Source: an uncultured Thiotrichaceae bacterium
Lineage (GTDB): Bacteria; Pseudomonadota; Gammaproteobacteria; SZUA-229
NCBI GenBank assembly: GCA_964600755.1
Contig: CAZRKQ010000050.1
Coordinates: 4,926 to 68,925, forward strand
Reading direction: 5' to 3'
Length of the DNA: 64,000 nt
The first letter of the stretch is position 1. Each line of letters opens with the position of its first letter. Both the position numbers and the translations under genes were made by a program. Shown piece by piece: positions 2,438 through 41,187 of the stretch. The notes below the pieces were generated by a model that worked only from the letters and a program-made list of their open reading frames with translations, had not been told where the DNA came from and ran no database searches.

Positions 2438-4180
2438 TTATGCCCAGTTCGTCTGTTTCGCCTTGTGCAGTTTCCTGTAGCCTTCAAGTAACTTGTTATG
2501 CAGCTCAAAACCTTCCAGGCTCAATCCCGGACTGTGCAGGCCATGAAATACTTCCCTGCCCTCGGCTATTTCAATACCGTTAATGACACTGTCTTCGCCA
2601 TACATCAGTACCAGGCTATTACTGTAATCTTCGAATTTACGATTTTCGTCGTGCTTTATGTCCAGTAGCGCATTGATACAGCGATATTGGTTTGATCGCT
2701 TCTCGCCAAGCTGATCGATTTGCACACACCAGTCGACCCAATCGATGGCCTGTTCATCCTGCATGGCCAGACACAGCATTGCTTTAAGCTCACCTATTCT
2801 CAGGGTCGCCCAGGCGGTACCAGGGTCTGGTGCTATGCCTATAAACTCGGCAACGCGTTGAAAATCATTGTAGCCTGCTGCTTCGAGCCGGTTGAAGATA
2901 TCGCGCCAGCGTTCACTATCAAGCTCTTTCACAGACAGAACATCTTTTCTGAATAAAGCACCTTCATTGTTGTTATTCCAGACCAGGTCATCGACGGGGT
3001 AAATATCTGACATACCCGGTACGATGATGCGGCACGAATACACATCCAGGTGCTGGTAGTCTGAGATATAAATATCGAAACCCATGTCATGAATGACACC
3101 GCATAAATACTCAAATTCATCATGCGTGTTGGCATCATGTTCCCAGTCGGCAAATTCATAGTCCGCTGAGTGTTTGAAAAAGTCGTATGAAATCAGTCCG
3201 CTGGAGTCGATAAAATGCGATTCCAGGTTATGGTGGTCTGCTACCTCTTCGAGGTCGAAGCTTGGTTGCTGAAAGCCATCCAGCTGGTCCAGGCCCCTGC
3301 CCTGCAGCAGCTCGGTGACGGTGCGCTCAAGCGCAACTTCAAAACACGGGTGGGCACCGAATGATGCGAACACGGAGCCATTATTTGGGTTAATCAGCGT
3401 AACGCTCATAACCGGGAATTTGCCTCCTAAAGAAGCATCGGCAATACGCAGATGGTAACCATGCTGCTGTAATTCACTGATTGAAGCAGCGATACCTGGA
3501 AACCGGTTGATGACCTCGAGCGGCACTTCTGGCAGACAGATTCCATCTGCGATGATTCTGTTCTTTACATAGCGCTCAAAAACCTCGGACAATGCCTGCA
3601 CGCGGGCCTCGTTGGCAGTATTACCGGCGGACATACCGTTGCTGACGTAGATGTTGCCAATAACATTCACCGGGAACCAGGTTGTGTGTCCGTCTTTTTG
3701 CCGCTGGTAAGGCACCGCACATATACCACGCTGACCTGTGCCCGAGTTGGTATCGAATATTTGACCAGGTTTCAGCTGCCTGTCAGGGTCATAGTAGTTC
3801 CACAGGCCGTCATCAAGCAGACCGGCAGGCATCGTCTCAGCATCAGTCTGGAACCAGCGTTCGTCCGGGTAATGTACGAAGTCATCATTGGAAAATTCTT
3901 CACCGAGGTAGAAATCTGCGAAAAAATAATTGCAGCTCAGGCGTTCAAAATATTCACCCAGTGCACTGGCAAGACAGGCCTTGTGGCTGGCGCCCTTGCC
4001 ATTTGTAAACATCAGGCCACACTCCTTGTCCCTGATATGAACCGAGTAGACATTCGGCACAGGATTCAACCATGAAGCTTCTTCAATCTCGATACCAAGC
4101 GCTTTCAGTTTGTTCAACATGCTCTCGATGGATGATTCGAGATCACGGTCCTTGCCCTTTATGAATGTGATTTCAGACAT
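2438..4180 (-). CDS. ycaO: YcaO-domain protein (ribosomal protein S12 methylthiotransferase accessory factor-type)
   Basis: 580 aa. Collinear with E. coli YcaO (IEEASWLNPVPNV.SVHIRDKEC...GKGA...ALASALGEYFERLS.NYFFADF ... ACRIIVPGMSDIYP...). Confidence 0.9.
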   Translation of the reverse strand: MSEITFIKGKDRDLESSIESMLNKLKALGIEIEEASWLNPVPNVYSVHIRDKECGLMFTNGKGASHKACLASALGEYFERLSCNYFFADFYLGEEFSNDDFVHYPDERWFQTDAETMPAGLLDDGLWNYYDPDRQLKPGQIFDTNSGTGQRGICAVPYQRQKDGHTTWFPVNVIGNIYVSNGMSAGNTANEARVQALSEVFERYVKNRIIADGICLPEVPLEVINRFPGIAASISELQQHGYHLRIADASLGGKFPVMSVTLINPNNGSVFASFGAHPCFEVALERTVTELLQGRGLDQLDGFQQPSFDLEEVADHHNLESHFIDSSGLISYDFFKHSADYEFADWEHDANTHDEFEYLCGVIHDMGFDIYISDYQHLDVYSCRIIVPGMSDIYPVDDLVWNNNNEGALFRKDVLSVKELDSERWRDIFNRLEAAGYNDFQRVAEFIGIAPDPGTAWATLRIGELKAMLCLAMQDEQAIDWVDWCVQIDQLGEKRSNQYRCINALLDIKHDENRKFEDYSNSLVLMYGEDSVINGIEIAEGREVFHGLHSPGLSLEGFELHNKLLEGYRKLHKAKQTNWA

Positions 4181-21679: not shown

Positions 21680-21990
21680 TATCCGTCTCCTGGTTCATGC
21701 TCGAATGTTGTGTATCTATGTGATATTTTATATACCGCTTTGCATTGTTGCCCTCCCCTGAATCAGGGTTAATGCAATAATTTAAAGCGGCTTGAACAGT
21801 GTTATGATAAAATTTAGTAACTATCTGATTTATCAGTAAATTTTGCCCTCACCAACCTTAAATTAAGCTTAAAATAACTGTCAGCGTAGCTTAAGGTTAC
21901 ATCCGTTATAGTTCTATCGTTGGTTGTTAACAGCAAACTGCTTTTAGCAGAACTAACATATTCATTGCGCACGGGTCGGTTAAGCTGATC

Positions 21991-22043
21991 CATAGAAACG
22001 GGATGTCGACCTAATCCTCAAGGGTCGGCGTCCCGTTTCTAGT
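21991..22043. promoter_or_regulatory. Strong imperfect hairpin (18-bp stem) in the divergent promoter region between the response regulator and the cyc2-like gene
   Basis: AGAAACGGGATGTCGACC-taatcctcaag-GGTCGGCGTCCCGTTTCT. No flanking T-run on either strand, so it is not a canonical terminator. A second 8-bp inverted repeat, TTATCAAG...CTTGATAA, lies 20 bp downstream. Confidence 0.4.
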
Positions 22044-22172
22044 TATGCCGCCTTAATTTATCAAGATAGAACTTTTCCCTAACTTGATAAATGTCAAGCC
22101 GTCCGTGTCCCTTCAGTGTATTATTTTTTTAGTCGATCATCATACTAAAATAATCGCTCGCAAGGTATAACA

Positions 22173-23483
22173 ATGCTTTCTACAACGCGTCTGGGCTTTC
22201 AACCGAGTGTCTACATTTTCTCATTAATATTTATCACCCTGTTCTTGTTGATTACGCTGATACCATCCATGAGTGAAGCCATGCCGGTATTCGCGCGTAA
22301 ATACAACATGAGCTGTAGTACCTGCCATGCCGCCTTCCCCAGGCTTAACGAATTCGGTGAGCAGTTTGCCAGTGACAACATGCGCCTGCCAAACTGGAAA
22401 GATACAACTGTATCCACTGGCGATGATATGCTCGCCCTGCCTGACACAGTGCCACTGGCGCTGAGAACACAGGCCTATGTACAGCAACGTGAAGCAACAA
22501 CCATCGACGTTGAGACCGGTGAAGAAATATCCGCTGACACAGACATCCAGGCTCCTTATCAAATCAAGTTACTCTCCAGTGCGCCGCTGTCAGACCACAT
22601 TACCTACTACTTTTATGCCATTTATGCCGAAAAAGGCGGCAATGGCGAGGTGCTTGTCGAAGATGCCTGGTTCAGGCACGATGACATTTTCAATACGAAC
22701 ATCGGTATGATGCTGGGGCAGTTCCAGGTATCCGACCTGATGTTTGCGCGTGAAGTCAGGCTGACATTCCAGGATTTCATGGTCTATCGCATGGCCGGTC
22801 TCACTTATGACCGCGGGCTGTTATTTGATTATGCTGCAGGGCCTGTTGACCTTGCCCTGGGCTGGGTCAATGGCAATGGTATCGAAGAAAATTTCACCAT
22901 TAACAGCCCCGGCTACAAACGCGCGGATCATTTGTTCGATAATAACGGCGGTAAAGCGATATTTGGCCGCGTCGGCACAGACATTGCGGGTGTTGGTATT
23001 GGCTTGTTCGGTTATTCGGGTACACAGAAAAATGCCGAAGCACCTGCTGGATTAACTAGCGGCGATCGTGATACAGACAAAATATCATATGGCTTTGACC
23101 TGTCGGGCAAGTTTACCGAGAAAACCTACTGGTTCGCACAGCTGTTACAAAACCAGTGGGATGGTTTCCTGCAAGCTGATACCACCTATAAGTGGTTTGG
23201 TAGTTTTGTCGGTGTTGACTATATTCACAGTGATCGCTGGGCCTATTCCCTGCTCTACAATTACACGGATGCCAATGATTTCGAGAATACCGATACCATC
23301 TATGAGGGTATCGATATGAATACGATTACATTCACCGCCGCCTACTACTTCATGCGTAACATTAAAGGTGTTATTGAAGTCAATCTCGACCTGCTTGACC
23401 CTGTTGCTCAGACGGGAACATATTTCACCGGGCATCTCACCGGCGAGAACTATGCCCTTGTTGGCTTTGATGCGGCTTTCTAG
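22173..23483 (+). CDS. cyc2: Cyc2-like fused monoheme cytochrome c / outer-membrane beta-barrel porin (candidate Fe(II) oxidase)
   Basis: 436 aa. N-terminal signal peptide, then MPVFARKYNMSCSTCH, which matches the Cyc2 signature PxFARxxxxxCxxCH exactly. The remainder is rich in alternating beta-strand patterns and ends in a C-terminal Phe (...LVGFDAAF), typical of OM beta-barrels. Confidence 0.75.
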   Translation: MLSTTRLGFQPSVYIFSLIFITLFLLITLIPSMSEAMPVFARKYNMSCSTCHAAFPRLNEFGEQFASDNMRLPNWKDTTVSTGDDMLALPDTVPLALRTQAYVQQREATTIDVETGEEISADTDIQAPYQIKLLSSAPLSDHITYYFYAIYAEKGGNGEVLVEDAWFRHDDIFNTNIGMMLGQFQVSDLMFAREVRLTFQDFMVYRMAGLTYDRGLLFDYAAGPVDLALGWVNGNGIEENFTINSPGYKRADHLFDNNGGKAIFGRVGTDIAGVGIGLFGYSGTQKNAEAPAGLTSGDRDTDKISYGFDLSGKFTEKTYWFAQLLQNQWDGFLQADTTYKWFGSFVGVDYIHSDRWAYSLLYNYTDANDFENTDTIYEGIDMNTITFTAAYYFMRNIKGVIEVNLDLLDPVAQTGTYFTGHLTGENYALVGFDAAF

Positions 23484-23532
23484 ACAAAACGATTTCCGTC
23501 TTTGACAGCATAAATAGTAATCACCGTTAATA

Positions 23533-24939
23533 ATGGCTATCGATGTCCAGATATTCGGCGCCGCTGACGAAGTCACCGGTTCCTGCCACCTGGTGACAGT
23601 GGGTAACAACCGCGTCCTGCTTGATTGCGGCCTTATCCAGGGACGCCGCAAGGATGAAGAACGTAACAAGGAGCCATTCCCGTTCGATCCAGAATCCATC
23701 GATGCCGTGGTGCTGAGCCATGCACACATCGACCACTCAGGTCGACTGCCGATGCTGGTAAAAGCGGGCTTCAGCGGCCCGATATATACCCACCGTGCCA
23801 GCCGGGACCTGTGCCGCATTATGTTGAAAGATTCCGCCTTTCTCAATGAAAAGGATATCGAGTGGGAAAACCGCAAGCGCCTGCGCAAAGGCTTGAAGCC
23901 AGTTGAAGCTTTATACACCGTTGAAGATGCACGCTCTGCAATGTCCCGGTTCAAGGGTCTTGTTTACCAGAAAAAAGTCAAAATACTGCCGAATGTGACG
24001 CTATGTCTGAACGATGCTGGACATATCCTGGGATCCGCTATCGTGGAATTGTGGCTTGAAGATGCAGGAAACGTACGCAAGCTGGTGTTCAGCGGTGATT
24101 TAGGTCGACCAGGCATGCCGATACTGCAGGACCCTGCCGTCATTCGACAGGCAGACCACGTTATCATGGAGAGTACCTACGGTGACCGTATGCATCGTTC
24201 GTGGGAGGATACGTTAACGGAGATAGAAAGTGTTGTTCGAAACACCACAAAAAGCCGGGGTAATATTCTGATACCTGCTTTTGCAGTAGGACGCACACAG
24301 GAAATTCTGTATATGTTTGCCAGGTACTATAAGGAATGGGGCCTTGAACGCTGGCAGGTGTTTCTCGATAGCCCGCTGGCGATTGAAGCAACACGTGTAT
24401 TTACCCGACACAGTGATTTATTTGACTCGGAGATGAAGGAATTATGGCAACAGAACAAAGCGCAATCGATCTTGCCTAACCTGCATATTTCCAGAACATC
24501 AAATCAATCGATGGCACTCAACCGGATCCACTCCGGAGCCATCATTATTGCCGGCAGCGGCATGTGCAGCGGCGGTCGCATCAAGCACCACCTCAAGCAT
24601 AATATCTGGCGGCGAGAATGCCATGTCGTCATCTCCGGTTTCCAGGCAGGTGGAACGCTGGGCCGTACTCTGGTCGATGGTGCCAAATATATCAGGCTGT
24701 GGGGAGAAACAGTTCGTGTCGCAGCAGGTATCCACACAGTTGGCGGGCTCTCTGCCCATGCAGACCAGCTCGGCCTGAAAAACTGGTATGCCAACTTTGA
24801 AGGACGACCGCCAGTGGCCCTGGTCCACGGCGAAACCACTGCACTTGAGAACCTGGGCAACACCCTGAAAAACGAACTGGATGCACCTGTTACGATCGCG
24901 AAATACGGGCAGAAACTGGATTTGACTAATCTCAGGTAA
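23533..24939 (+). CDS. MBL-fold metallo-hydrolase of the beta-CASP family (RNA-metabolising, RNase J/CPSF-like)
   Basis: 468 aa. Motif HAHIDHSG, then the beta-CASP and C-terminal RMMBL region (GGLSAHADQ). Confidence 0.8.
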   Translation: MAIDVQIFGAADEVTGSCHLVTVGNNRVLLDCGLIQGRRKDEERNKEPFPFDPESIDAVVLSHAHIDHSGRLPMLVKAGFSGPIYTHRASRDLCRIMLKDSAFLNEKDIEWENRKRLRKGLKPVEALYTVEDARSAMSRFKGLVYQKKVKILPNVTLCLNDAGHILGSAIVELWLEDAGNVRKLVFSGDLGRPGMPILQDPAVIRQADHVIMESTYGDRMHRSWEDTLTEIESVVRNTTKSRGNILIPAFAVGRTQEILYMFARYYKEWGLERWQVFLDSPLAIEATRVFTRHSDLFDSEMKELWQQNKAQSILPNLHISRTSNQSMALNRIHSGAIIIAGSGMCSGGRIKHHLKHNIWRRECHVVISGFQAGGTLGRTLVDGAKYIRLWGETVRVAAGIHTVGGLSAHADQLGLKNWYANFEGRPPVALVHGETTALENLGNTLKNELDAPVTIAKYGQKLDLTNLR

Positions 24940-25034
24940 ACTACATCCATGAATTATCTTGACCAGTGTCAAAACAAGGCACGGCAAGTTAGTGTCTAAT
25001 TAAATAAAGAAAACAATCTGGAGGGTAGGAATAC

Positions 25035-25478
25035 ATGAGAAAAACATGGGTAATTGTTGCCGACAACAGTCGAGCACGCATTTTCACTTCAGAAACTCCA
25101 TCATCAGCGTTAATAGAAGTAGACTCTATTGTTCATCCGGAAGCCCGTATGCATGATCGCGATATCACCAGCGATTTACCGGGCCGTGGCTCTGGCACAG
25201 GCGGATCACGTCATTCTTATGAGACTGAAACAGATGCGAAGGATTATGAGAACCTGGGTTTCGCCAAACGCATTGCCGGTTTTCTTGATGAGGCGCGTAA
25301 AAGTGACAAATTCAAGCAGTTGATTATTGTTGCCGCACCGTCATTACTGGGCAACCTGCGCAGTGGATTGAATCATCAAACCAGAAAATTGGTCAGCCTG
25401 GAACTGGACAAGAATCTTTCACAACTTAGTCCTGATGAAATCCGCAAGCACATGCCGGAATTTCTTCCGAACAAGTGA
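25035..25478 (+). CDS. Host_attach (PF10116) family protein
   Basis: 147 aa. WVIVADNSRARIF...DLPGRG...LIIVAAPSLLGNLRSGL matches the conserved layout of the 'host attachment protein' family. Confidence 0.6.
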   Translation: MRKTWVIVADNSRARIFTSETPSSALIEVDSIVHPEARMHDRDITSDLPGRGSGTGGSRHSYETETDAKDYENLGFAKRIAGFLDEARKSDKFKQLIIVAAPSLLGNLRSGLNHQTRKLVSLELDKNLSQLSPDEIRKHMPEFLPNK

Positions 25479-25500
25479 ACTTGCAGTAGCAAGTATATTT

Positions 25501-32981: not shown

Positions 32982-33566
32982 CTAGTCGTCCTCTTTATTG
33001 TATTTCAATGCTGCCCACACTGTTCTGACATCCACATGTTCATGATGAATCAGCAGCGTAATTGCTATTTCTTCTAAAGCAGCCACTGCTGAAAATACGG
33101 CAGCTACCCTGAAAGGCCAGTCGAGCCATCCTGCAAAAAGTAATATATAACCAACAAAGGTCACCACAACAGCCACTTTAACAGTCCAGGTGTGATAACT
33201 GGTGATGGTGTTGAACTTGATGAGCCCTACGATGACAGGTGATGTAAAACTGATTACAATCACAACAAATGAGAGTAGTTCTTCAACAACAATCTCGGGC
33301 CAGAGTATCCATGCGCAAACAGCCATGGTGGTATAGATGGTGAAATCACCCCAGCTATCGAGGCGTGATCCCAATGCTGTTATCTGATTCAGCATGCGTG
33401 CAAGGAAACCATCCAGCACATCTGTAAAACCTGAAAACATCAGGCCAGCAAGAAACCAGACAGGTTTCTGGGTAAATGCAAAATAGAATAAAACCGGCGC
33501 CATCAGAATGCGTATAAAACTGACAAAATTCGGCAGGTTATAGATTTCTCGATTGGCTAAGTTCAT
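32982..33566 (-). CDS. CDP-alcohol phosphatidyltransferase family protein
   Basis: 194 aa, membrane protein. D-G-x2-A-R...G...D...D-type motif (DVLDGFLARML...GSRLDSWGD). Confidence 0.8.
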   Translation of the reverse strand: MNLANREIYNLPNFVSFIRILMAPVLFYFAFTQKPVWFLAGLMFSGFTDVLDGFLARMLNQITALGSRLDSWGDFTIYTTMAVCAWILWPEIVVEELLSFVVIVISFTSPVIVGLIKFNTITSYHTWTVKVAVVVTFVGYILLFAGWLDWPFRVAAVFSAVAALEEIAITLLIHHEHVDVRTVWAALKYNKEDD

Positions 33567-33605
33567 AATACTAAATTAAGATCTTGAATTATTTACCAAT
33601 AATAA

Positions 33606-34091
33606 CTAATAAGGCTTTTTACGTATACCCAGTTTATAGAAGATGTAGGACAGCAATAGCTCTGAAATAACAAACGCACATACGAGAATGATTATTGACT
33701 CCATATTGAGTTCAAATACATCCCTTAACATGATGGCCGGAAATAGCGACTCCGGAACCTGGTCAAGTAATGGCGCCATACTGCTTGGCGCCATTCCCAG
33801 GCGGCGCTTGATAAAACTGGAGAAAATATCTCCTGCAACCACATATAAAGCGACCAGTATGCCTGTTACTGCTGGGTAGCCAAGTAAAACAGCACCAACA
33901 GAGGTGAATATAAGGGCACCTGCAATGCCACGCCAGGTTTTTGATTTACCGAATAACGGATTGTCGTCAGCCAGCCGGCGACAAAAATCAACAGGCAAAT
34001 TCAGCCTGTTTTTCATCAGCGCGCGCAATACGACTGGTGCTCCATTTGCAATTATAATAAGCAACAGAAGATGTAATAAATTTATAGACAT
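33606..34091 (-). CDS. CarS-like (CDP-archaeol synthase / DUF46 family) integral-membrane cytidylyltransferase
   Basis: 161 aa with 4-5 TM segments. GKSKTWRG and the rest of the layout resemble the CarS/CdsA-related CTP-transferase family. It sits immediately upstream of the CDP-alcohol phosphatidyltransferase gene on the same strand. Confidence 0.5.
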   Translation of the reverse strand: MSINLLHLLLLIIIANGAPVVLRALMKNRLNLPVDFCRRLADDNPLFGKSKTWRGIAGALIFTSVGAVLLGYPAVTGILVALYVVAGDIFSSFIKRRLGMAPSSMAPLLDQVPESLFPAIMLRDVFELNMESIIILVCAFVISELLLSYIFYKLGIRKKPY

Positions 34092-39885: not shown

Positions 39886-41187
39886 GAGTCAAGGACATAG
39901 GTAACAAAAGAGTCCAAGGACATGGGTTACACTTTCACCGTGATATAGGGCACGGTCTTACCCTTAATACTTCTTTCATCAAATCGTCCGAGTGTGACCG
40001 GTCCAAAATATACCTGCCAGATCCCCGCATCGACTTCTTCCAGTCCAACATGTTCACCTTTCAACAGGTGTGACACATAGACCAGCTTGTTATGCCAGTA
40101 CACCACGCCATTGCTGCTGACTTTGCGCACCTCAAAATAATTCGGATAGTGCAGCTCGGGTAGATGTTCCGGGTAAGGTCGGGGTGACGGTGCGTAGTGT
40201 GAGGCGGGCGTCTGCTGCTCAAGCGCCTCATGCGGACGCTGTTCATTGTACTCTGCACGAAAGGCATCGAAGCGTTGTTGCTGGGCTTTCATGTTCGCCG
40301 ACGGTGGCCGGGTCGCCGCTTGCTTAAGCGTGCGGTGCATGCGCTCATGCCGTCCATTCTGTTGCGGCTTGCCCGGCTCAATGCGCTCGGGCAGGATCCC
40401 CAGCCTGATCCACCACAGTGACAGTTGCGACAGGCCACCGCGGGCCGTGCTGGCAAAGGGTACGCCGTTGTCAGAACGGATGCGCTCAGGCAAGCCGTAT
40501 TGTCGGAACAGTCGGGTGAAGGTGGCCCGGGTGTCTTTCAGCCGCGGCCCTTTGAGGGCGTCGCAACCACACAGGTAGCGACTTTGATGGTCCATGACCG
40601 TGAGTGGATAACACCACTGGCCGTTACCCAGTTTGAACTGCCCTTTGTAGTCGACACTCCACACCCCATTGACCTGCTTCACCGGGGCAAACGGTTGTGG
40701 ATACGGCGTCACCCGGCGCCGGCGCCGGCGCGGGTGCACCAGGCCCGCACGGGACAGAATGTTGTAAATCGTGCTCTTTGAGGGAATGGCTTCATCGGGA
40801 TAACGCTGTGCCAGCAGCACCTGCAGCTTCTTGGCACCGGGCTGTGTCTGAAACTGCTGGCGCAGTTCGATGATGGCTTGCTGAATGCGGTAAGGGGTTC
40901 GCGTTGGACACGCGGTGGGTGTACGGCGTTGTTCATTCAGCCCGTCCAGCCCTTGTTGCTGAAAACGGTGTATCCACTTGTAACCCGTTTTTCGGCTGAC
41001 GCCATAGTGTGCACACAGCTCGGTCACGCTCGCTACCTGGCGCAGGTAGTCGGCAATAAACAGGACTTTTTGTTGCATCGGCTTCACCTCTTTCCAGGGC
41101 ATAGGCACCTCCTCTTGTCGGTGCCAACAGATTACTCAATCTGTTACCTATGTCCTTGGACTAATGTGTTACCTATGTTTATAAACC
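39886..41187 (-). mobile_element. IS481-family insertion sequence (about 1.3 kb) with duplicated terminal inverted repeats, GC-rich relative to its surroundings
   Basis: Terminal IRs: GTCAAGGACATAGGTAACA / GTCCAAGGACATGGGTTACA at 39888-39931, and TGTTACCTATGTCCTTGGAC / TGTTACCTATGTTT at 41143-41182. A single DDE transposase ORF lies inside. The coding DNA is visibly more GC-rich than flanking genes. Confidence 0.8.
39927..41108 (-). CDS. IS481-family DDE transposase (N-terminal HTH + integrase catalytic core)
   Basis: 393 aa. HTH (ELCAHYGVSRKTGYKWIHRF), DDE integrase core (WSVDYKG...VMDHQSRY..., SDNGVPF, ...QNGRHER), and a poly-Arg PRRRRRR linker. Confidence 0.85.
   Translation of the reverse strand: MPMPWKEVKPMQQKVLFIADYLRQVASVTELCAHYGVSRKTGYKWIHRFQQQGLDGLNEQRRTPTACPTRTPYRIQQAIIELRQQFQTQPGAKKLQVLLAQRYPDEAIPSKSTIYNILSRAGLVHPRRRRRRVTPYPQPFAPVKQVNGVWSVDYKGQFKLGNGQWCYPLTVMDHQSRYLCGCDALKGPRLKDTRATFTRLFRQYGLPERIRSDNGVPFASTARGGLSQLSLWWIRLGILPERIEPGKPQQNGRHERMHRTLKQAATRPPSANMKAQQQRFDAFRAEYNEQRPHEALEQQTPASHYAPSPRPYPEHLPELHYPNYFEVRKVSSNGVVYWHNKLVYVSHLLKGEHVGLEEVDAGIWQVYFGPVTLGRFDERSIKGKTVPYITVKV

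What the first reader, a model, noticed from the sequence alone, without database searches (positions are those of the whole stretch)
22173..23483. Cyc2-type fused cytochrome c-porin (candidate outer-membrane Fe(II) oxidase) with an intact PxFARxxxxxCxxCH motif
After a signal peptide, the 436-aa protein reads MPVFARKYNMSCSTCH. That is P-x-F-A-R, five residues, then CxxCH. This N-terminal signature distinguishes Cyc2 monoheme cytochrome-porin fusions from ordinary porins. The remaining ~380 aa has beta-barrel character and ends in Phe. If the gene is functional, the organism may oxidise extracellular Fe(II) or other electron donors at the outer membrane. That would be a lifestyle-defining trait sitting among otherwise ordinary housekeeping genes. 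The gene lies 50 bp upstream of a beta-CASP RNase gene and a Host_attach-family gene on the same strand.
Basis: partly seen in the sequence, partly recalled or inferred. Interest (0 to 1): 0.8.

Follow-up and report, generated by a model that had tools for sequence, protein, structure and literature searches.

The report
Cyc2-like outer-membrane cytochrome-porin gene
This gene does encode a Cyc2-type protein (a one-heme cytochrome fused to a 16-stranded outer-membrane pore), but its near-identical orthologs sit alone in many bacteria that are not iron oxidisers, so it does not by itself mark an iron-oxidising lifestyle.

Summary
Window 22173-23483 (+) encodes a 436-aa protein. It has a signal peptide, then A-x-P-x-F-A-R-K-Y-NMS-CxxCH-AAF-P-x-L, which matches the published Cyc2-defining consensus exactly. 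A barrel ending in Phe follows.

The lifestyle claim is not supported. The gene belongs to a tightly conserved ortholog group (54-85% identity, dN/dS about 0.05). That group occurs in Microbulbifer, Wenzhouxiangella, Thiohalophilus, Thioalkalivibrio, Woeseiaceae and others. It has no conserved cytochrome or oxidase neighbour in 84 loci, and it is clearly not the validated Cluster 1 type.

Verdict: a new member of a known family. Fe(II) oxidation is plausible but unproven, and is probably accessory.

The parts
22173..23483 (+). Complete CDS of the Cyc2-like fused cytochrome-porin (436 aa plus stop)
   Evidence: ORF listing and sequence. An identical protein, P0001, is present in public metagenomes. 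dN/dS is 0.05-0.08 against the closest orthologs, and GC (48.6%) is like that of neighbouring genes.
22162..22165 (+). Probable Shine-Dalgarno sequence (AAGG), 7 nt before the ATG
   Evidence: Read directly from the sequence. This is an inference only.
22173..22280 (+). Sec signal peptide, residues 1-36, with predicted cleavage SEA|MP
   Evidence: There is a basic n-region (R6), a hydrophobic core at about residues 11-30 (Kyte-Doolittle), and S/A at -3/-1. Conservation across 84 orthologs jumps from 0.24 to 0.76 exactly at residue 37. The mature A. ferrooxidans Cyc2 starts at LPSFARQ, the same register (PMC3084935). No dedicated signal-peptide predictor was available.
22278..22346 (+). Cyc2 signature, residues 36-58: A-x-P-x-F-A-R-K-Y, then CSTCH (heme attachment, nt 22314-22328), then P-R-L four residues after the His
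   Evidence: Sequence. It matches the published consensus. P38, F40, R42, C48, C51, H52 and P56 are invariant even in the 27-sequence broad-family alignment, and are at least 97% conserved in 84 orthologs.
22281..22457 (+). Small N-terminal cytochrome domain plus linker, residues 37-95 (short helices; expected to be periplasmic or a pore plug)
   Evidence: AF2 secondary structure shows H39-43, H48-52 and H60-67. Confidence is low, as expected for a model without heme. This is the only region alignable by BLASTP to the FARQT-type Cyc2 proteins.
22458..23480 (+). 16-stranded porin barrel, residues 96-436, with C-terminal Phe
22728..22805 (+). Loop L3 (residues 186-211, VSDLMFAREVRLTFQDFMVYRMAGLT), the predicted pore-constriction loop and the best-conserved long element of the barrel
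   Evidence: It lies between strands 5 and 6 and contains two short helices. Mean conservation is 0.87 over 84 orthologs. The motifs GQFQ[VLT]SD.. and RE.RL....D. from this stretch were conserved enough across the wider family to serve as genome-scan patterns. Its role as the eyelet is inferred by analogy with general porins.
21680..22172 (.). 493-bp upstream intergenic region shared with the divergent OmpR-type response-regulator gene. It contains a GC-rich hairpin (21993-22041) and an AT-rich palindrome (22056-22092).
   Evidence: Inverted repeats were found. The elements are seen only in contigs of the same organism. There is no Rfam match, and the promoter scan is at chance level. A regulatory role is not shown.

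Best explanation
The gene encodes a member of the Cyc2 family: an outer-membrane monoheme c-type cytochrome fused to a 16-stranded porin.

Shown or strongly supported:
- The precursor has a Sec signal peptide.
- The mature protein begins at MPVFARKY..., and its only two cysteines form one CxxCH.
- The remaining roughly 340 residues form an OprP/Omp32-like barrel ending in Phe.
- The gene is native and under strong purifying selection.
- It is homologous to Gallionellaceae Cyc2 and to LPSFARQ-type Cyc2 proteins that are paired with a c4/Cyc1-like cytochrome.

Inferred mechanism:
- After export, the Ccm system attaches heme to C48/C51, with H52 as the proximal ligand.
- BAM inserts the barrel.
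- The small heme domain sits at or in the periplasmic mouth of the pore.
- A small soluble reductant enters the pore past the conserved charged L3 loop (D188, R193, E194, R196, D201), reduces the heme, and the electron passes to soluble periplasmic cytochromes encoded elsewhere in the genome. Fe2+ is the most likely reductant, because it is the only substrate demonstrated in this family.

This ortholog group is solitary in the genome and is shared by heterotrophs and sulfur oxidisers. Its role is therefore most likely accessory, such as opportunistic Fe(II) oxidation or detoxification at oxic-anoxic interfaces, rather than the basis of a lithotrophic lifestyle.
For: Motif and length: against the published definition.

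Cleavage register: and PMC3084935.

Homology:
- The profile search finds 2,317 clusters, and nearly all full-length ones carry PxFAR..CxxCH.
- hhalign of the subfamily profile gives 97.4% and 96.8% against the two reference sets.
- hhalign of the broad-family profile gives 99.2% against Gallionellaceae Cyc2, and 99.3% over 342 columns against the cyc1-linked LPSFARQ set. The partners in that set were confirmed as diheme class I cytochromes.

Constraint: 105 positions are at least 97% conserved in 84 orthologs, L3 is the most conserved loop, and dN/dS is 0.05-0.08.

Accessory role:
- Orthologs occur in Microbulbifer (5 species), Wenzhouxiangella, Thiohalophilus thiocyanatoxydans, Thioalkalivibrio, Woeseiaceae and Steroidobacteraceae.
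- No neighbour is conserved.
- Cyc2 homologs were detected in the metaproteome of sulfur-oxidising Woeseiaceae on sulfide chimneys (PMC6850669).
Against: - No biochemical datum exists for any member of this ortholog group.
- Sequence similarity to functionally tested Cyc2 types is confined mainly to the first 120 or so residues.
- No conserved distal heme ligand (Met or His) is evident family-wide.
- The cytochrome domain is modelled at low confidence, so its position relative to the pore is not established.
- The FeGenie HMMs and the curated Cyc2 tree could not be consulted, so the cluster assignment is unknown.
- The rest of the genome is unseen, so periplasmic partners are assumed.
- The extracellular loops are unusually conserved for a porin. 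This could point to a specific partner or substrate other than Fe2+.
Confidence: 0.6

Rival explanations
1. One reading: the protein is the primary outer-membrane Fe(II) oxidase of an energy-conserving, lifestyle-defining iron-oxidation pathway (Cyc2, then a periplasmic cytochrome, then a terminal oxidase), as in Zetaproteobacteria, Gallionellaceae or Acidithiobacillus.
For: It has the same family signature and architecture as proven Fe(II) oxidases. One ortholog occurs in a Gallionellaceae MAG (L085). Thiohalophilus loci have c4-like and monoheme cytochrome genes 1.2-2 kb away. Related benthic Gammaproteobacteria express Cyc2 homologs on metal sulfides.
Against: The ortholog group is common in aerobic heterotrophs and sulfur oxidisers not known to grow on iron (the physiology is from my own knowledge). 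A cytochrome gene lies within 5 kb in only 17 of 84 loci, and these are never a conserved partner. There is none in this 64-kb window. The protein is not Cluster 1-like. The literature warns that non-Cluster-1 homologs need supporting context.
Confidence: 0.15
2. It is a Cyc2-like redox porin that acts on a different substrate or in a different direction. Examples are oxidation of another small reductant, electron export to an extracellular acceptor, or periplasmic/extracellular redox sensing. The strongly conserved external loops would provide the specificity.
For: Extracellular loops L3, L4 and L7 are as conserved as the strands, and there are five clade-specific loop insertions. The gene is solitary and is spread across metabolic types. 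The sister clade (30-38% identical) is always paired with a 4-5-heme cytochrome gene, which shows that the family is used in more than one electron-transfer arrangement. Keffer et al. state that Cyc2 may have additional functions.
Against: No alternative substrate has been demonstrated for any Cyc2. A single heme in a narrow pore fits a small aquo-ion best (the argument). Nothing in the neighbourhood points to another substrate.
Confidence: 0.2
3. It is essentially a solute porin, and the N-terminal heme-binding segment is a structural plug or gating element with no electron-transfer role.
For: The barrel is structurally closest to general and anion- or phosphate-selective porins. Its housekeeping-like distribution and solitary position resemble an ordinary porin gene.
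Against: CxxCH, the PxFAR motif and PxL are at least 97% conserved across 84 orthologs, and are invariant across the much wider family. This argues for selection on heme binding itself. Ordinary porins have no such domain, and Pfam porin models do not match.
Confidence: 0.05

Closest known systems
Cyc2 of neutrophilic iron oxidisers (Cluster 1: Mariprofundus Cyc2 PV-1, Gallionellaceae Cyc2)
   Same: Both have a signal peptide, then xPxFAR, five residues, CxxCH and PxL, with a single heme. Size is similar (about 430 aa). Both have a 16-stranded OprP-like barrel with a long L1 and a helix-containing L3, and the AF2 models hit the same PDB porins. hhalign probability is 97-99%.
   Different: The motif variant is FARKY...CSTCHAAFP, against FARQTGMACSACHxQHFP. 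BLASTP similarity is only 28% over residues 17-147 (59 bits), and the rest of the barrel is not alignable. The carriers are mostly not iron oxidisers. The reference set is anchored by Gallionella taxonomy, not by FeGenie classification.
Cyc2 of Acidithiobacillus ferrooxidans (Cluster 2) and LPSFARQ-type relatives paired with a c4/Cyc1-like gene
   Same: The cleavage register is the same: the mature N-terminus is LPSFARQ there and is predicted as MPVFARK here. Full-length profile homology is 99.3% over 342 columns.
   Different: Those proteins are 450-490 aa and of the FARQTG type, and are followed within 40 nt or less by a diheme cytochrome gene. The window gene and its 84 orthologs have no such partner. 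No rus-operon context was recovered, so the A. ferrooxidans protein itself was not compared.
Cyt572 of Leptospirillum and other Cluster 3 Cyc2 homologs
   Same: This is the diverse, functionally uncertain part of the Cyc2 tree that includes many non-iron-oxidisers. The FAR[K]Y variant is one of the two consensus options.
   Different: No Cluster 3 reference sequence or HMM was available here, so membership of Cluster 3 is a guess and not a result.
Sister clade of about 385-395-aa FARKY-type cytochrome-porins (Zixibacteria and other MAGs)
   Same: These are the closest relatives outside the ortholog group: 30-38% identity over the full length, with shared L3 motifs and the same N-terminal signature.
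   Different: They lack five loop insertions present here (residues ~107-123, 243-254, 301-315, 369-379, 408-424). In 4 of 4 loci they are preceded by a 4-5-heme cytochrome gene.
General and specific 16-stranded porins (Omp32, OprP, OmpF class)
   Same: Barrel fold, strand number, and an L3 loop folding between strands 5 and 6.
   Different: Sequence identity is only 10-14%, and Pfam porin models do not match. Those porins have no N-terminal heme-binding domain.
MtrCAB / MtoAB / PioAB porin-cytochrome complexes
   Same: They are also outer-membrane conduits that couple a beta-barrel to c-type heme for metal redox chemistry.

Membership tests
Cyc2 fused cytochrome-porin family (criteria of McAllister 2020 / Keffer 2021) | Single CXXCH heme-binding motif near the N-terminus | tested here: met
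   C48-S-T-C51-H52, the only two Cys in the protein. It is conserved in 83 of 84 orthologs.
Cyc2 fused cytochrome-porin family (criteria of McAllister 2020 / Keffer 2021) | AXPXFAR[Q/K][T/Y] motif, with five residues between the Arg and the first Cys | tested here: met
   A36-M-P38-V-F40-A-R42-K43-Y44, then NMS, then C48. The definition is quoted from PMC8406198.
Cyc2 fused cytochrome-porin family (criteria of McAllister 2020 / Keffer 2021) | PXL motif four residues after CXXCH | tested here: met
   H52-A-A-F-P56-R-L58. P56 is invariant and L58 nearly invariant in the broad alignment.
Cyc2 fused cytochrome-porin family (criteria of McAllister 2020 / Keffer 2021) | Length of at least 365 aa | tested here: met
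   436 aa.
Cyc2 fused cytochrome-porin family (criteria of McAllister 2020 / Keffer 2021) | Signal peptide, with the heme motif retained in the mature protein | tested here: met
   n/h/c regions and the -3/-1 rule (S34, A36) were read manually. There is a conservation break at residue 37. The register is identical to the Edman N-terminus LPSFARQ of A. ferrooxidans Cyc2. No SignalP-type tool was available.
Cyc2 fused cytochrome-porin family (criteria of McAllister 2020 / Keffer 2021) | C-terminal 16-stranded porin domain | tested here: met
Cyc2 fused cytochrome-porin family (criteria of McAllister 2020 / Keffer 2021) | BLASTP E <= 1e-5 to a reference from one of the three clusters in a database-scale search | tested here: inconclusive
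   The score against Gallionellaceae Cyc2 P0297 is 59.3 bits (pairwise E 7e-14). My own estimate is that this is near 1e-4 to 1e-5 at nr scale. No Cluster 2 or Cluster 3 type sequences were available. Profile-profile comparisons are significant.
Cyc2 fused cytochrome-porin family (criteria of McAllister 2020 / Keffer 2021) | Score above the FeGenie Cyc2 HMM cut-off, and assignment to Cluster 1, 2 or 3 | not testable with these tools
Pfam and NCBIfam have no Cyc2 model.
Cyc2 fused cytochrome-porin family (criteria of McAllister 2020 / Keffer 2021) | Fe(II) oxidase activity and covalently bound heme | not testable with these tools
   This requires biochemistry. No solved structure or characterised close relative was found.
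Cluster 1 Cyc2 (validated neutrophilic Fe(II) oxidase clade) | Close full-length relationship to Zetaproteobacteria, Gallionellaceae or Chlorobi Cyc2 | tested here: not met
   Identity is only 28% over residues 17-147. hhalign aligns only about 120 columns. The profile search's top 150 clusters are almost all FAR[K/Q/R]Y type, with a single FARQT.
Acidithiobacillus-type cyc2-cyc1 module | c4-type diheme cytochrome gene immediately downstream of cyc2 | tested here: not met
   The downstream gene here is a beta-CASP RNase. Among 84 ortholog loci, no conserved cytochrome neighbour was found. The reference LPSFARQ loci do have one.
Ordinary (non-redox) general porin | Barrel only, with no cofactor-binding N-terminal domain | tested here: not met
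   A conserved CxxCH domain precedes the barrel. There is no match to Pfam porin families.
MtrB/MtoB/PioB-type porin of porin-decaheme complexes | About 26-strand barrel partnered with a separate decaheme cytochrome | tested here: not met
   The barrel has 16 strands. There is no multiheme gene in the window, and only one in 84 ortholog loci, 8.4 kb away.

The most novel reading that the evidence does not exclude
This tightly conserved, solitary ortholog group may be a functionally distinct branch of the Cyc2 family. It carries five clade-specific loop insertions and external loops as conserved as the strands, and it is found in aerobic heterotrophs, sulfur oxidisers and scattered other phyla. 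It could be a quasi-housekeeping outer-membrane redox porin whose job is not lithotrophic iron oxidation. Possible roles include Fe(II) scavenging or detoxification, oxidation of another small reductant, or redox signalling. If so, counting it as an iron-oxidation marker in metagenomes, as FeGenie-style surveys do, would overestimate iron oxidisers in marine sediments.
Probability: 0.3. Interest if true: 0.55.

Novelty: new member of a known kind. Interest (0 to 1): 0.35.

Why it matters
Cyc2 is widely used as the marker gene for neutrophilic iron oxidation in metagenome surveys. This case shows how a perfect match to the family signature can occur in an ortholog group that is widespread in bacteria not known to oxidise iron and that has no electron-transfer partners nearby. 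For this genome, the gene justifies only the statement 'encodes a Cyc2-like outer-membrane cytochrome-porin'. It does not justify 'is an iron oxidiser'.

Several carriers are cultured (Microbulbifer, Wenzhouxiangella, Thiohalophilus, Thioalkalivibrio). This clade therefore offers a practical route to testing what non-Cluster-1 Cyc2 homologs do, which the field itself lists as an open question.

Tried and rejected
- **Direct family and structure searches.** Pfam, NCBIfam and PDB-sequence searches of the protein gave nothing usable. tblastn against annotated plasmids gave no match.
- **Unavailable library.** AFDB Foldseek (afdb50) was not available, so organism-labelled structural neighbours could not be obtained.
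- **Genome scan.** The first attempt failed because the alignment was too diverse. A narrower alignment worked.
- **Second named-protein search.** The search with the broad profile mostly re-found the same subfamily.
- **Reference Cyc2 sequences from the literature.** The Keffer supplements and a full-text peptide-string search gave no sequences, apart from the Edman heptapeptide LPSFARQ.
- **Looking for the A. ferrooxidans rus operon.** I searched the 120 LPSFARQ-type metagenome loci for it. Cyc2-c4 pairs were found, but no cox/rusticyanin context, so a bona fide Acidithiobacillus Cyc2 was not recovered.
- **Cluster names.** Source names for distant representatives were uninformative.
- **Upstream region.** There is no Rfam family. 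The two inverted repeats occur only in the same organism. Promoter and terminator scans are at chance level.
- **Readings rejected.** A chance ORF or pseudogene is excluded by conservation and dN/dS. CxxCH inside the signal peptide is excluded. An operon-level functional link to the beta-CASP/Host_attach genes is unlikely, since the linkage is seen in only 5 of 84 loci.
Full report
**Observation.** After a hydrophobic N-terminus, the protein reads ...SMSEA-MPVFARKYNMSCSTCHAAFPRLNEFG.... The two cysteines of the CSTCH are the only ones in the protein, and it ends in ...GFDAAF. The pattern P.FAR.{5}C..CH occurs once in all six reading frames of the window, and no other credible c-type cytochrome gene is present. 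The downstream genes are a beta-CASP/RMMBL RNase (49-nt spacer) and a Host_attach/baeRF_family12 protein. Upstream and divergent lies an OmpR-type response regulator plus histidine kinase. The rest of the window is housekeeping.

**Match to the published family definition.** Keffer et al. 2021 (PMC8406198) define Cyc2 by five features: a signal peptide; one CXXCH; an AXPXFAR[Q/K][T/Y] motif five residues upstream, which they call unique to Cyc2; a PXL motif four residues downstream; and a length of at least 365 aa with a 16-stranded porin. The window protein has A36-x-P38-x-F40-A41-R42-K43-Y44, then C48xxC51H52, then P56-x-L58, which matches at every position. Pfam, NCBIfam and PDB sequence searches give nothing. 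This fits a family that has no model in those libraries.

**Signal peptide.** The N-terminus has a basic residue, a hydrophobic core of about 20 residues, and S-E-A at -3 to -1. In an alignment of 84 orthologs, mean conservation jumps from 0.24 (residues 1-36) to 0.76 starting at residue 37. Independently, Edman sequencing of the 50-kDa outer-membrane protein of A. ferrooxidans identified as Cyc2 gave LPSFARQ (PMC3084935). In that experimentally characterised member, signal peptidase therefore cuts one residue before the Pro of PxFAR. The predicted cut here (SEA|MPVFARK) is in the same register. The 'A' of the consensus is the -1 residue of the cleavage site, and the heme motif is in the mature protein.

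**Fold.**
- AlphaFold2 was run with a 77-sequence alignment that included about a dozen 30-38% relatives. It gave a model of moderate confidence (pLDDT 68.2, pTM 0.69).
- The N-terminal domain is short, helical and of low confidence, as expected without heme.
- It is followed by 16 long strands (96-106 through 427-435), with short turns of 2-7 residues on one side and long loops on the other.
- As a control, I modelled a Gallionellaceae Cyc2 (P0297). It has similar confidence (67.3 / 0.73) and the same layout, including a mini-hairpin in L1 and a helix-containing loop after strand 5, and it has the same top PDB hits.

**Homology to reference Cyc2 proteins.** No named Cyc2 sequence could be fetched directly, so I built two anchored reference sets.
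- *LPSFARQ set (A6).* A metagenome scan for LPSFARQ....CxxCH returned 120 loci. About ten of these genes are followed within 40 nt or less by a gene of about 220-230 aa with two CxxCH motifs. Four of these were checked against Pfam and have two class I cytochrome c domains. This is the cyc2-cyc1 arrangement.
- *Gallionellaceae set (A5).* One locus (L188, 433 aa...FARQTGMACSACHQQHFPVLN...) was used for the last named-database search. Almost every named relative is from Gallionella or Gallionellaceae; the exceptions are one MAG labelled only Pseudomonadota and one labelled Anaerolineales. [quoted passage not shown]
- *Pairwise BLASTP.* Against P0297 the window protein gives 59 bits and 28% identity over residues 17-147 only. 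Against the LPSFARQ set, similarity is mostly confined to residues ~30-65.
- *Profile-profile comparison.* The subfamily profile gives 97.4% (121 columns) against A5 and 96.8% against A6. The broader family profile, with the window protein as master, gives 99.2% (E 1e-19) against Gallionellaceae Cyc2, and 99.3% (E 2e-20) over 342 columns, essentially the full length, against the cyc1-linked set.
- *Conclusion.* The protein is a true homolog of Cyc2, but it is not of the Cluster 1 type. Which of the other clusters it falls in could not be tested.

**The ortholog group and its relatives.**
- The named-protein search found 1,423 hits. The best 120 are all 71-100% identical, about 436 aa long, and annotated as hypothetical proteins of Gammaproteobacteria MAGs.
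- An exhaustive profile search found 2,317 clusters at 50% identity (92 below 1e-30). Most full-length representatives are 385-430 aa and carry the PxFAR..CxxCH signature, overwhelmingly in the FAR[K/Q/R]Y variant.
The best 80 are 54-85% identical over about 400 residues.
- They include cultured Thiohalophilus thiocyanatoxydans, two Wenzhouxiangella, five Microbulbifer species and Thioalkalivibrio sp. XN8. They also include MAGs of Thiotrichaceae, Chromatiales, Woeseiaceae, Steroidobacteraceae, Lysobacterales, Hydrogenophilales/Thiobacillus, Burkholderiales and one Gallionellaceae, plus bins labelled Arcobacter, Persephonella and Aquificales.
- From general knowledge, Microbulbifer and Wenzhouxiangella are aerobic heterotrophs, and Thiohalophilus and Thioalkalivibrio are sulfur oxidisers. 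None is a recognised iron oxidiser.
- The heme signature is intact in 83 of 84 orthologs.

**Constraint.** dN/dS against the closest orthologs is 0.05-0.08, with dS saturated, and the gene's GC content matches its neighbours. In the 84 orthologs, 105 positions are at least 97% conserved. Mapped on the model, the best-conserved long element is loop L3 (residues 186-211, mean 0.87). It lies between strands 5 and 6 and, by analogy with general porins, should fold into the barrel as the constriction. It carries the conserved charges D188, R193, E194, R196 and D201. Motifs from this stretch are conserved into the sister clade and served as the genome-scan patterns. External loops L4 and L7 are as conserved as the strands, which is unusual for porins. 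Relative to the ~390-aa sister clade, the ortholog group has five loop insertions.

**Genomic context.**
- I clustered ORFs within +/-10 kb across the 84 loci. The target is present in 84 of 84.
- The next most frequent neighbour is present in only 12: a ~180-aa secreted protein without a Pfam match that abuts the stop codon in Wenzhouxiangella, Hydrogenophilales and related loci.
- The two-component pair is seen in 6-7 loci and the beta-CASP gene in 5.
- Any ORF with CxxCH lies within 5 kb in 17 of 84 loci, and these are not the same gene. Only Thiohalophilus loci show a c4-like and a monoheme cytochrome 1.2-2 kb away, on the other strand.
- By contrast, the LPSFARQ reference genes are followed by a c4-like gene. 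In all four sister-clade loci examined, a 4-5-heme cytochrome gene lies directly upstream.
- The window gene's clade is therefore the solitary one.

**Interpretation.**
- *Shown.* The architecture, the family signature, homology to Cyc2, strong purifying selection, a wide distribution outside known iron oxidisers, and the lack of conserved partners.
- *Inferred.* Sec export; heme attachment by Ccm; BAM insertion; a heme domain at the periplasmic mouth of a narrow pore; oxidation of a small reductant entering the pore, with Fe2+ the only substrate demonstrated in the family; and electron hand-off to periplasmic cytochromes encoded elsewhere.
- *Context in the literature.* Keffer et al. state that the function of homologs outside Cluster 1 is uncertain and that Cyc2 may have other functions. 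Cyc2 homologs have already been reported, and detected in a metaproteome, in sulfur-oxidising Woeseiaceae and Thiohalophilus-related bacteria (PMC6850669). FeGenie-based surveys report iron-oxidation genes (a set that includes Cyc2) in a Wenzhouxiangellaceae MAG.
- *Conclusion.* The finding is a new member of a known kind. The gene does not establish an iron-oxidising lifestyle for this organism.

**Limits.**
- The AF2 models are of moderate confidence, and the heme domain is not reliably placed.
- The Cluster 1 anchor rests on taxonomy and a literature statement.
- The Acidithiobacillus-type set rests on the heptapeptide plus a c4-like neighbour, not on organism identity.
- FeGenie HMMs, the curated tree and AFDB were unavailable.
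- The rest of the genome was not seen.

Noticed in passing
L208:4669-5991, L209:4089-5453, L210:2585-3991 (and the P0275 locus, for which no DNA was held): In the ~390-aa sister clade of FARKY-type cytochrome-porins (Zixibacteria and other MAGs), a 440-470-aa cytochrome gene with 4-5 CxxCH lies directly upstream on the same strand in 4 of 4 loci. The gap is 8-10 nt in three of them. This looks like a two-gene multiheme-plus-Cyc2-like module, which I did not find described in the papers read.
   Followed up: partly
L039:1798-2352, L043:11225-11788, L046, L035, L049, L051, L030-L032, L036-L038: In 12 of 84 ortholog loci (Wenzhouxiangella, Hydrogenophilales, Thiobacillus and others), a ~180-aa secreted protein with an 'ESDPxGAEV...G.TPL' motif starts at or overlaps the stop codon of the cyc2-like gene. 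It has no Pfam match and could be a clade-specific partner.
   Followed up: partly
window 23533-25494: The beta-CASP/RMMBL RNase gene and a Host_attach/baeRF_family12 gene follow the target on the same strand. No + strand terminator-like site appears until 25479-25494, so the three genes may be co-transcribed. The linkage is seen only in the closest relatives (5 of 84 loci), and the terminator scan is at chance level.
   Followed up: partly
window 21993-22041 and 22056-22092: There are two inverted repeats in the 493-bp upstream intergenic region: a GC-rich hairpin with 19-nt arms, and an AT-rich palindrome (ATTTATCAAGATAG / CTAACTTGATAAAT) about 80-115 nt before the start codon. The palindrome was found only in contigs of the same organism; the hairpin was not searched for outside the window. 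There is no Rfam match.
   Followed up: yes
L040, L062, L071, L079: Orthologs at 56-60% identity occur in MAGs labelled Arcobacter, Deltaproteobacteria, Persephonella and Aquificales. This reflects either horizontal transfer across phyla, in line with the 'low clade fidelity' reported for Cyc2 (PMC12442345), or contamination of the bins.
   Followed up: no
L087:10001-11283: In a Burkholderiales MAG, the ortholog's ORF lacks the PxFAR/CxxCH segment. This looks like an N-terminal frameshift, or the result of the first-in-frame start-codon rule my ORF caller used. It is the only one of 84 orthologs without the heme motif.
   Followed up: no
L139:7254-8738 and downstream; L126:1-4779: Two metagenome LPSFARQ-type Cyc2-like genes have unusual partners. 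In L139, a 746-aa ORF with 13 CxxCH lies 285 nt downstream. In L126, the order is cyc2-like, c4-like diheme cytochrome, triheme cytochrome c, then an ORF that looks by eye like a cytochrome bd subunit I (CydA); that ORF was not checked against Pfam.
   Followed up: partly
window 39927-41108 (-): An IS481-family transposase (rve/HTH domains) lies among housekeeping genes.
   Followed up: no
window 32982-34091 (-): Adjacent genes encode a CDP-alcohol phosphatidyltransferase and a CarS-like (CDP-archaeol synthase family) protein, an uncommon pairing in a gammaproteobacterium.
   Followed up: no
window 2438-4180 (-): A YcaO cyclodehydratase-family gene has both YcaO domains. No obvious RiPP precursor or partner was examined.
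   Followed up: no
window 23145-23954 (-): A 269-aa antisense ORF overlaps the 3' end of the target and the 5' end of the beta-CASP gene. It is almost certainly a non-coding shadow ORF.
   Followed up: no
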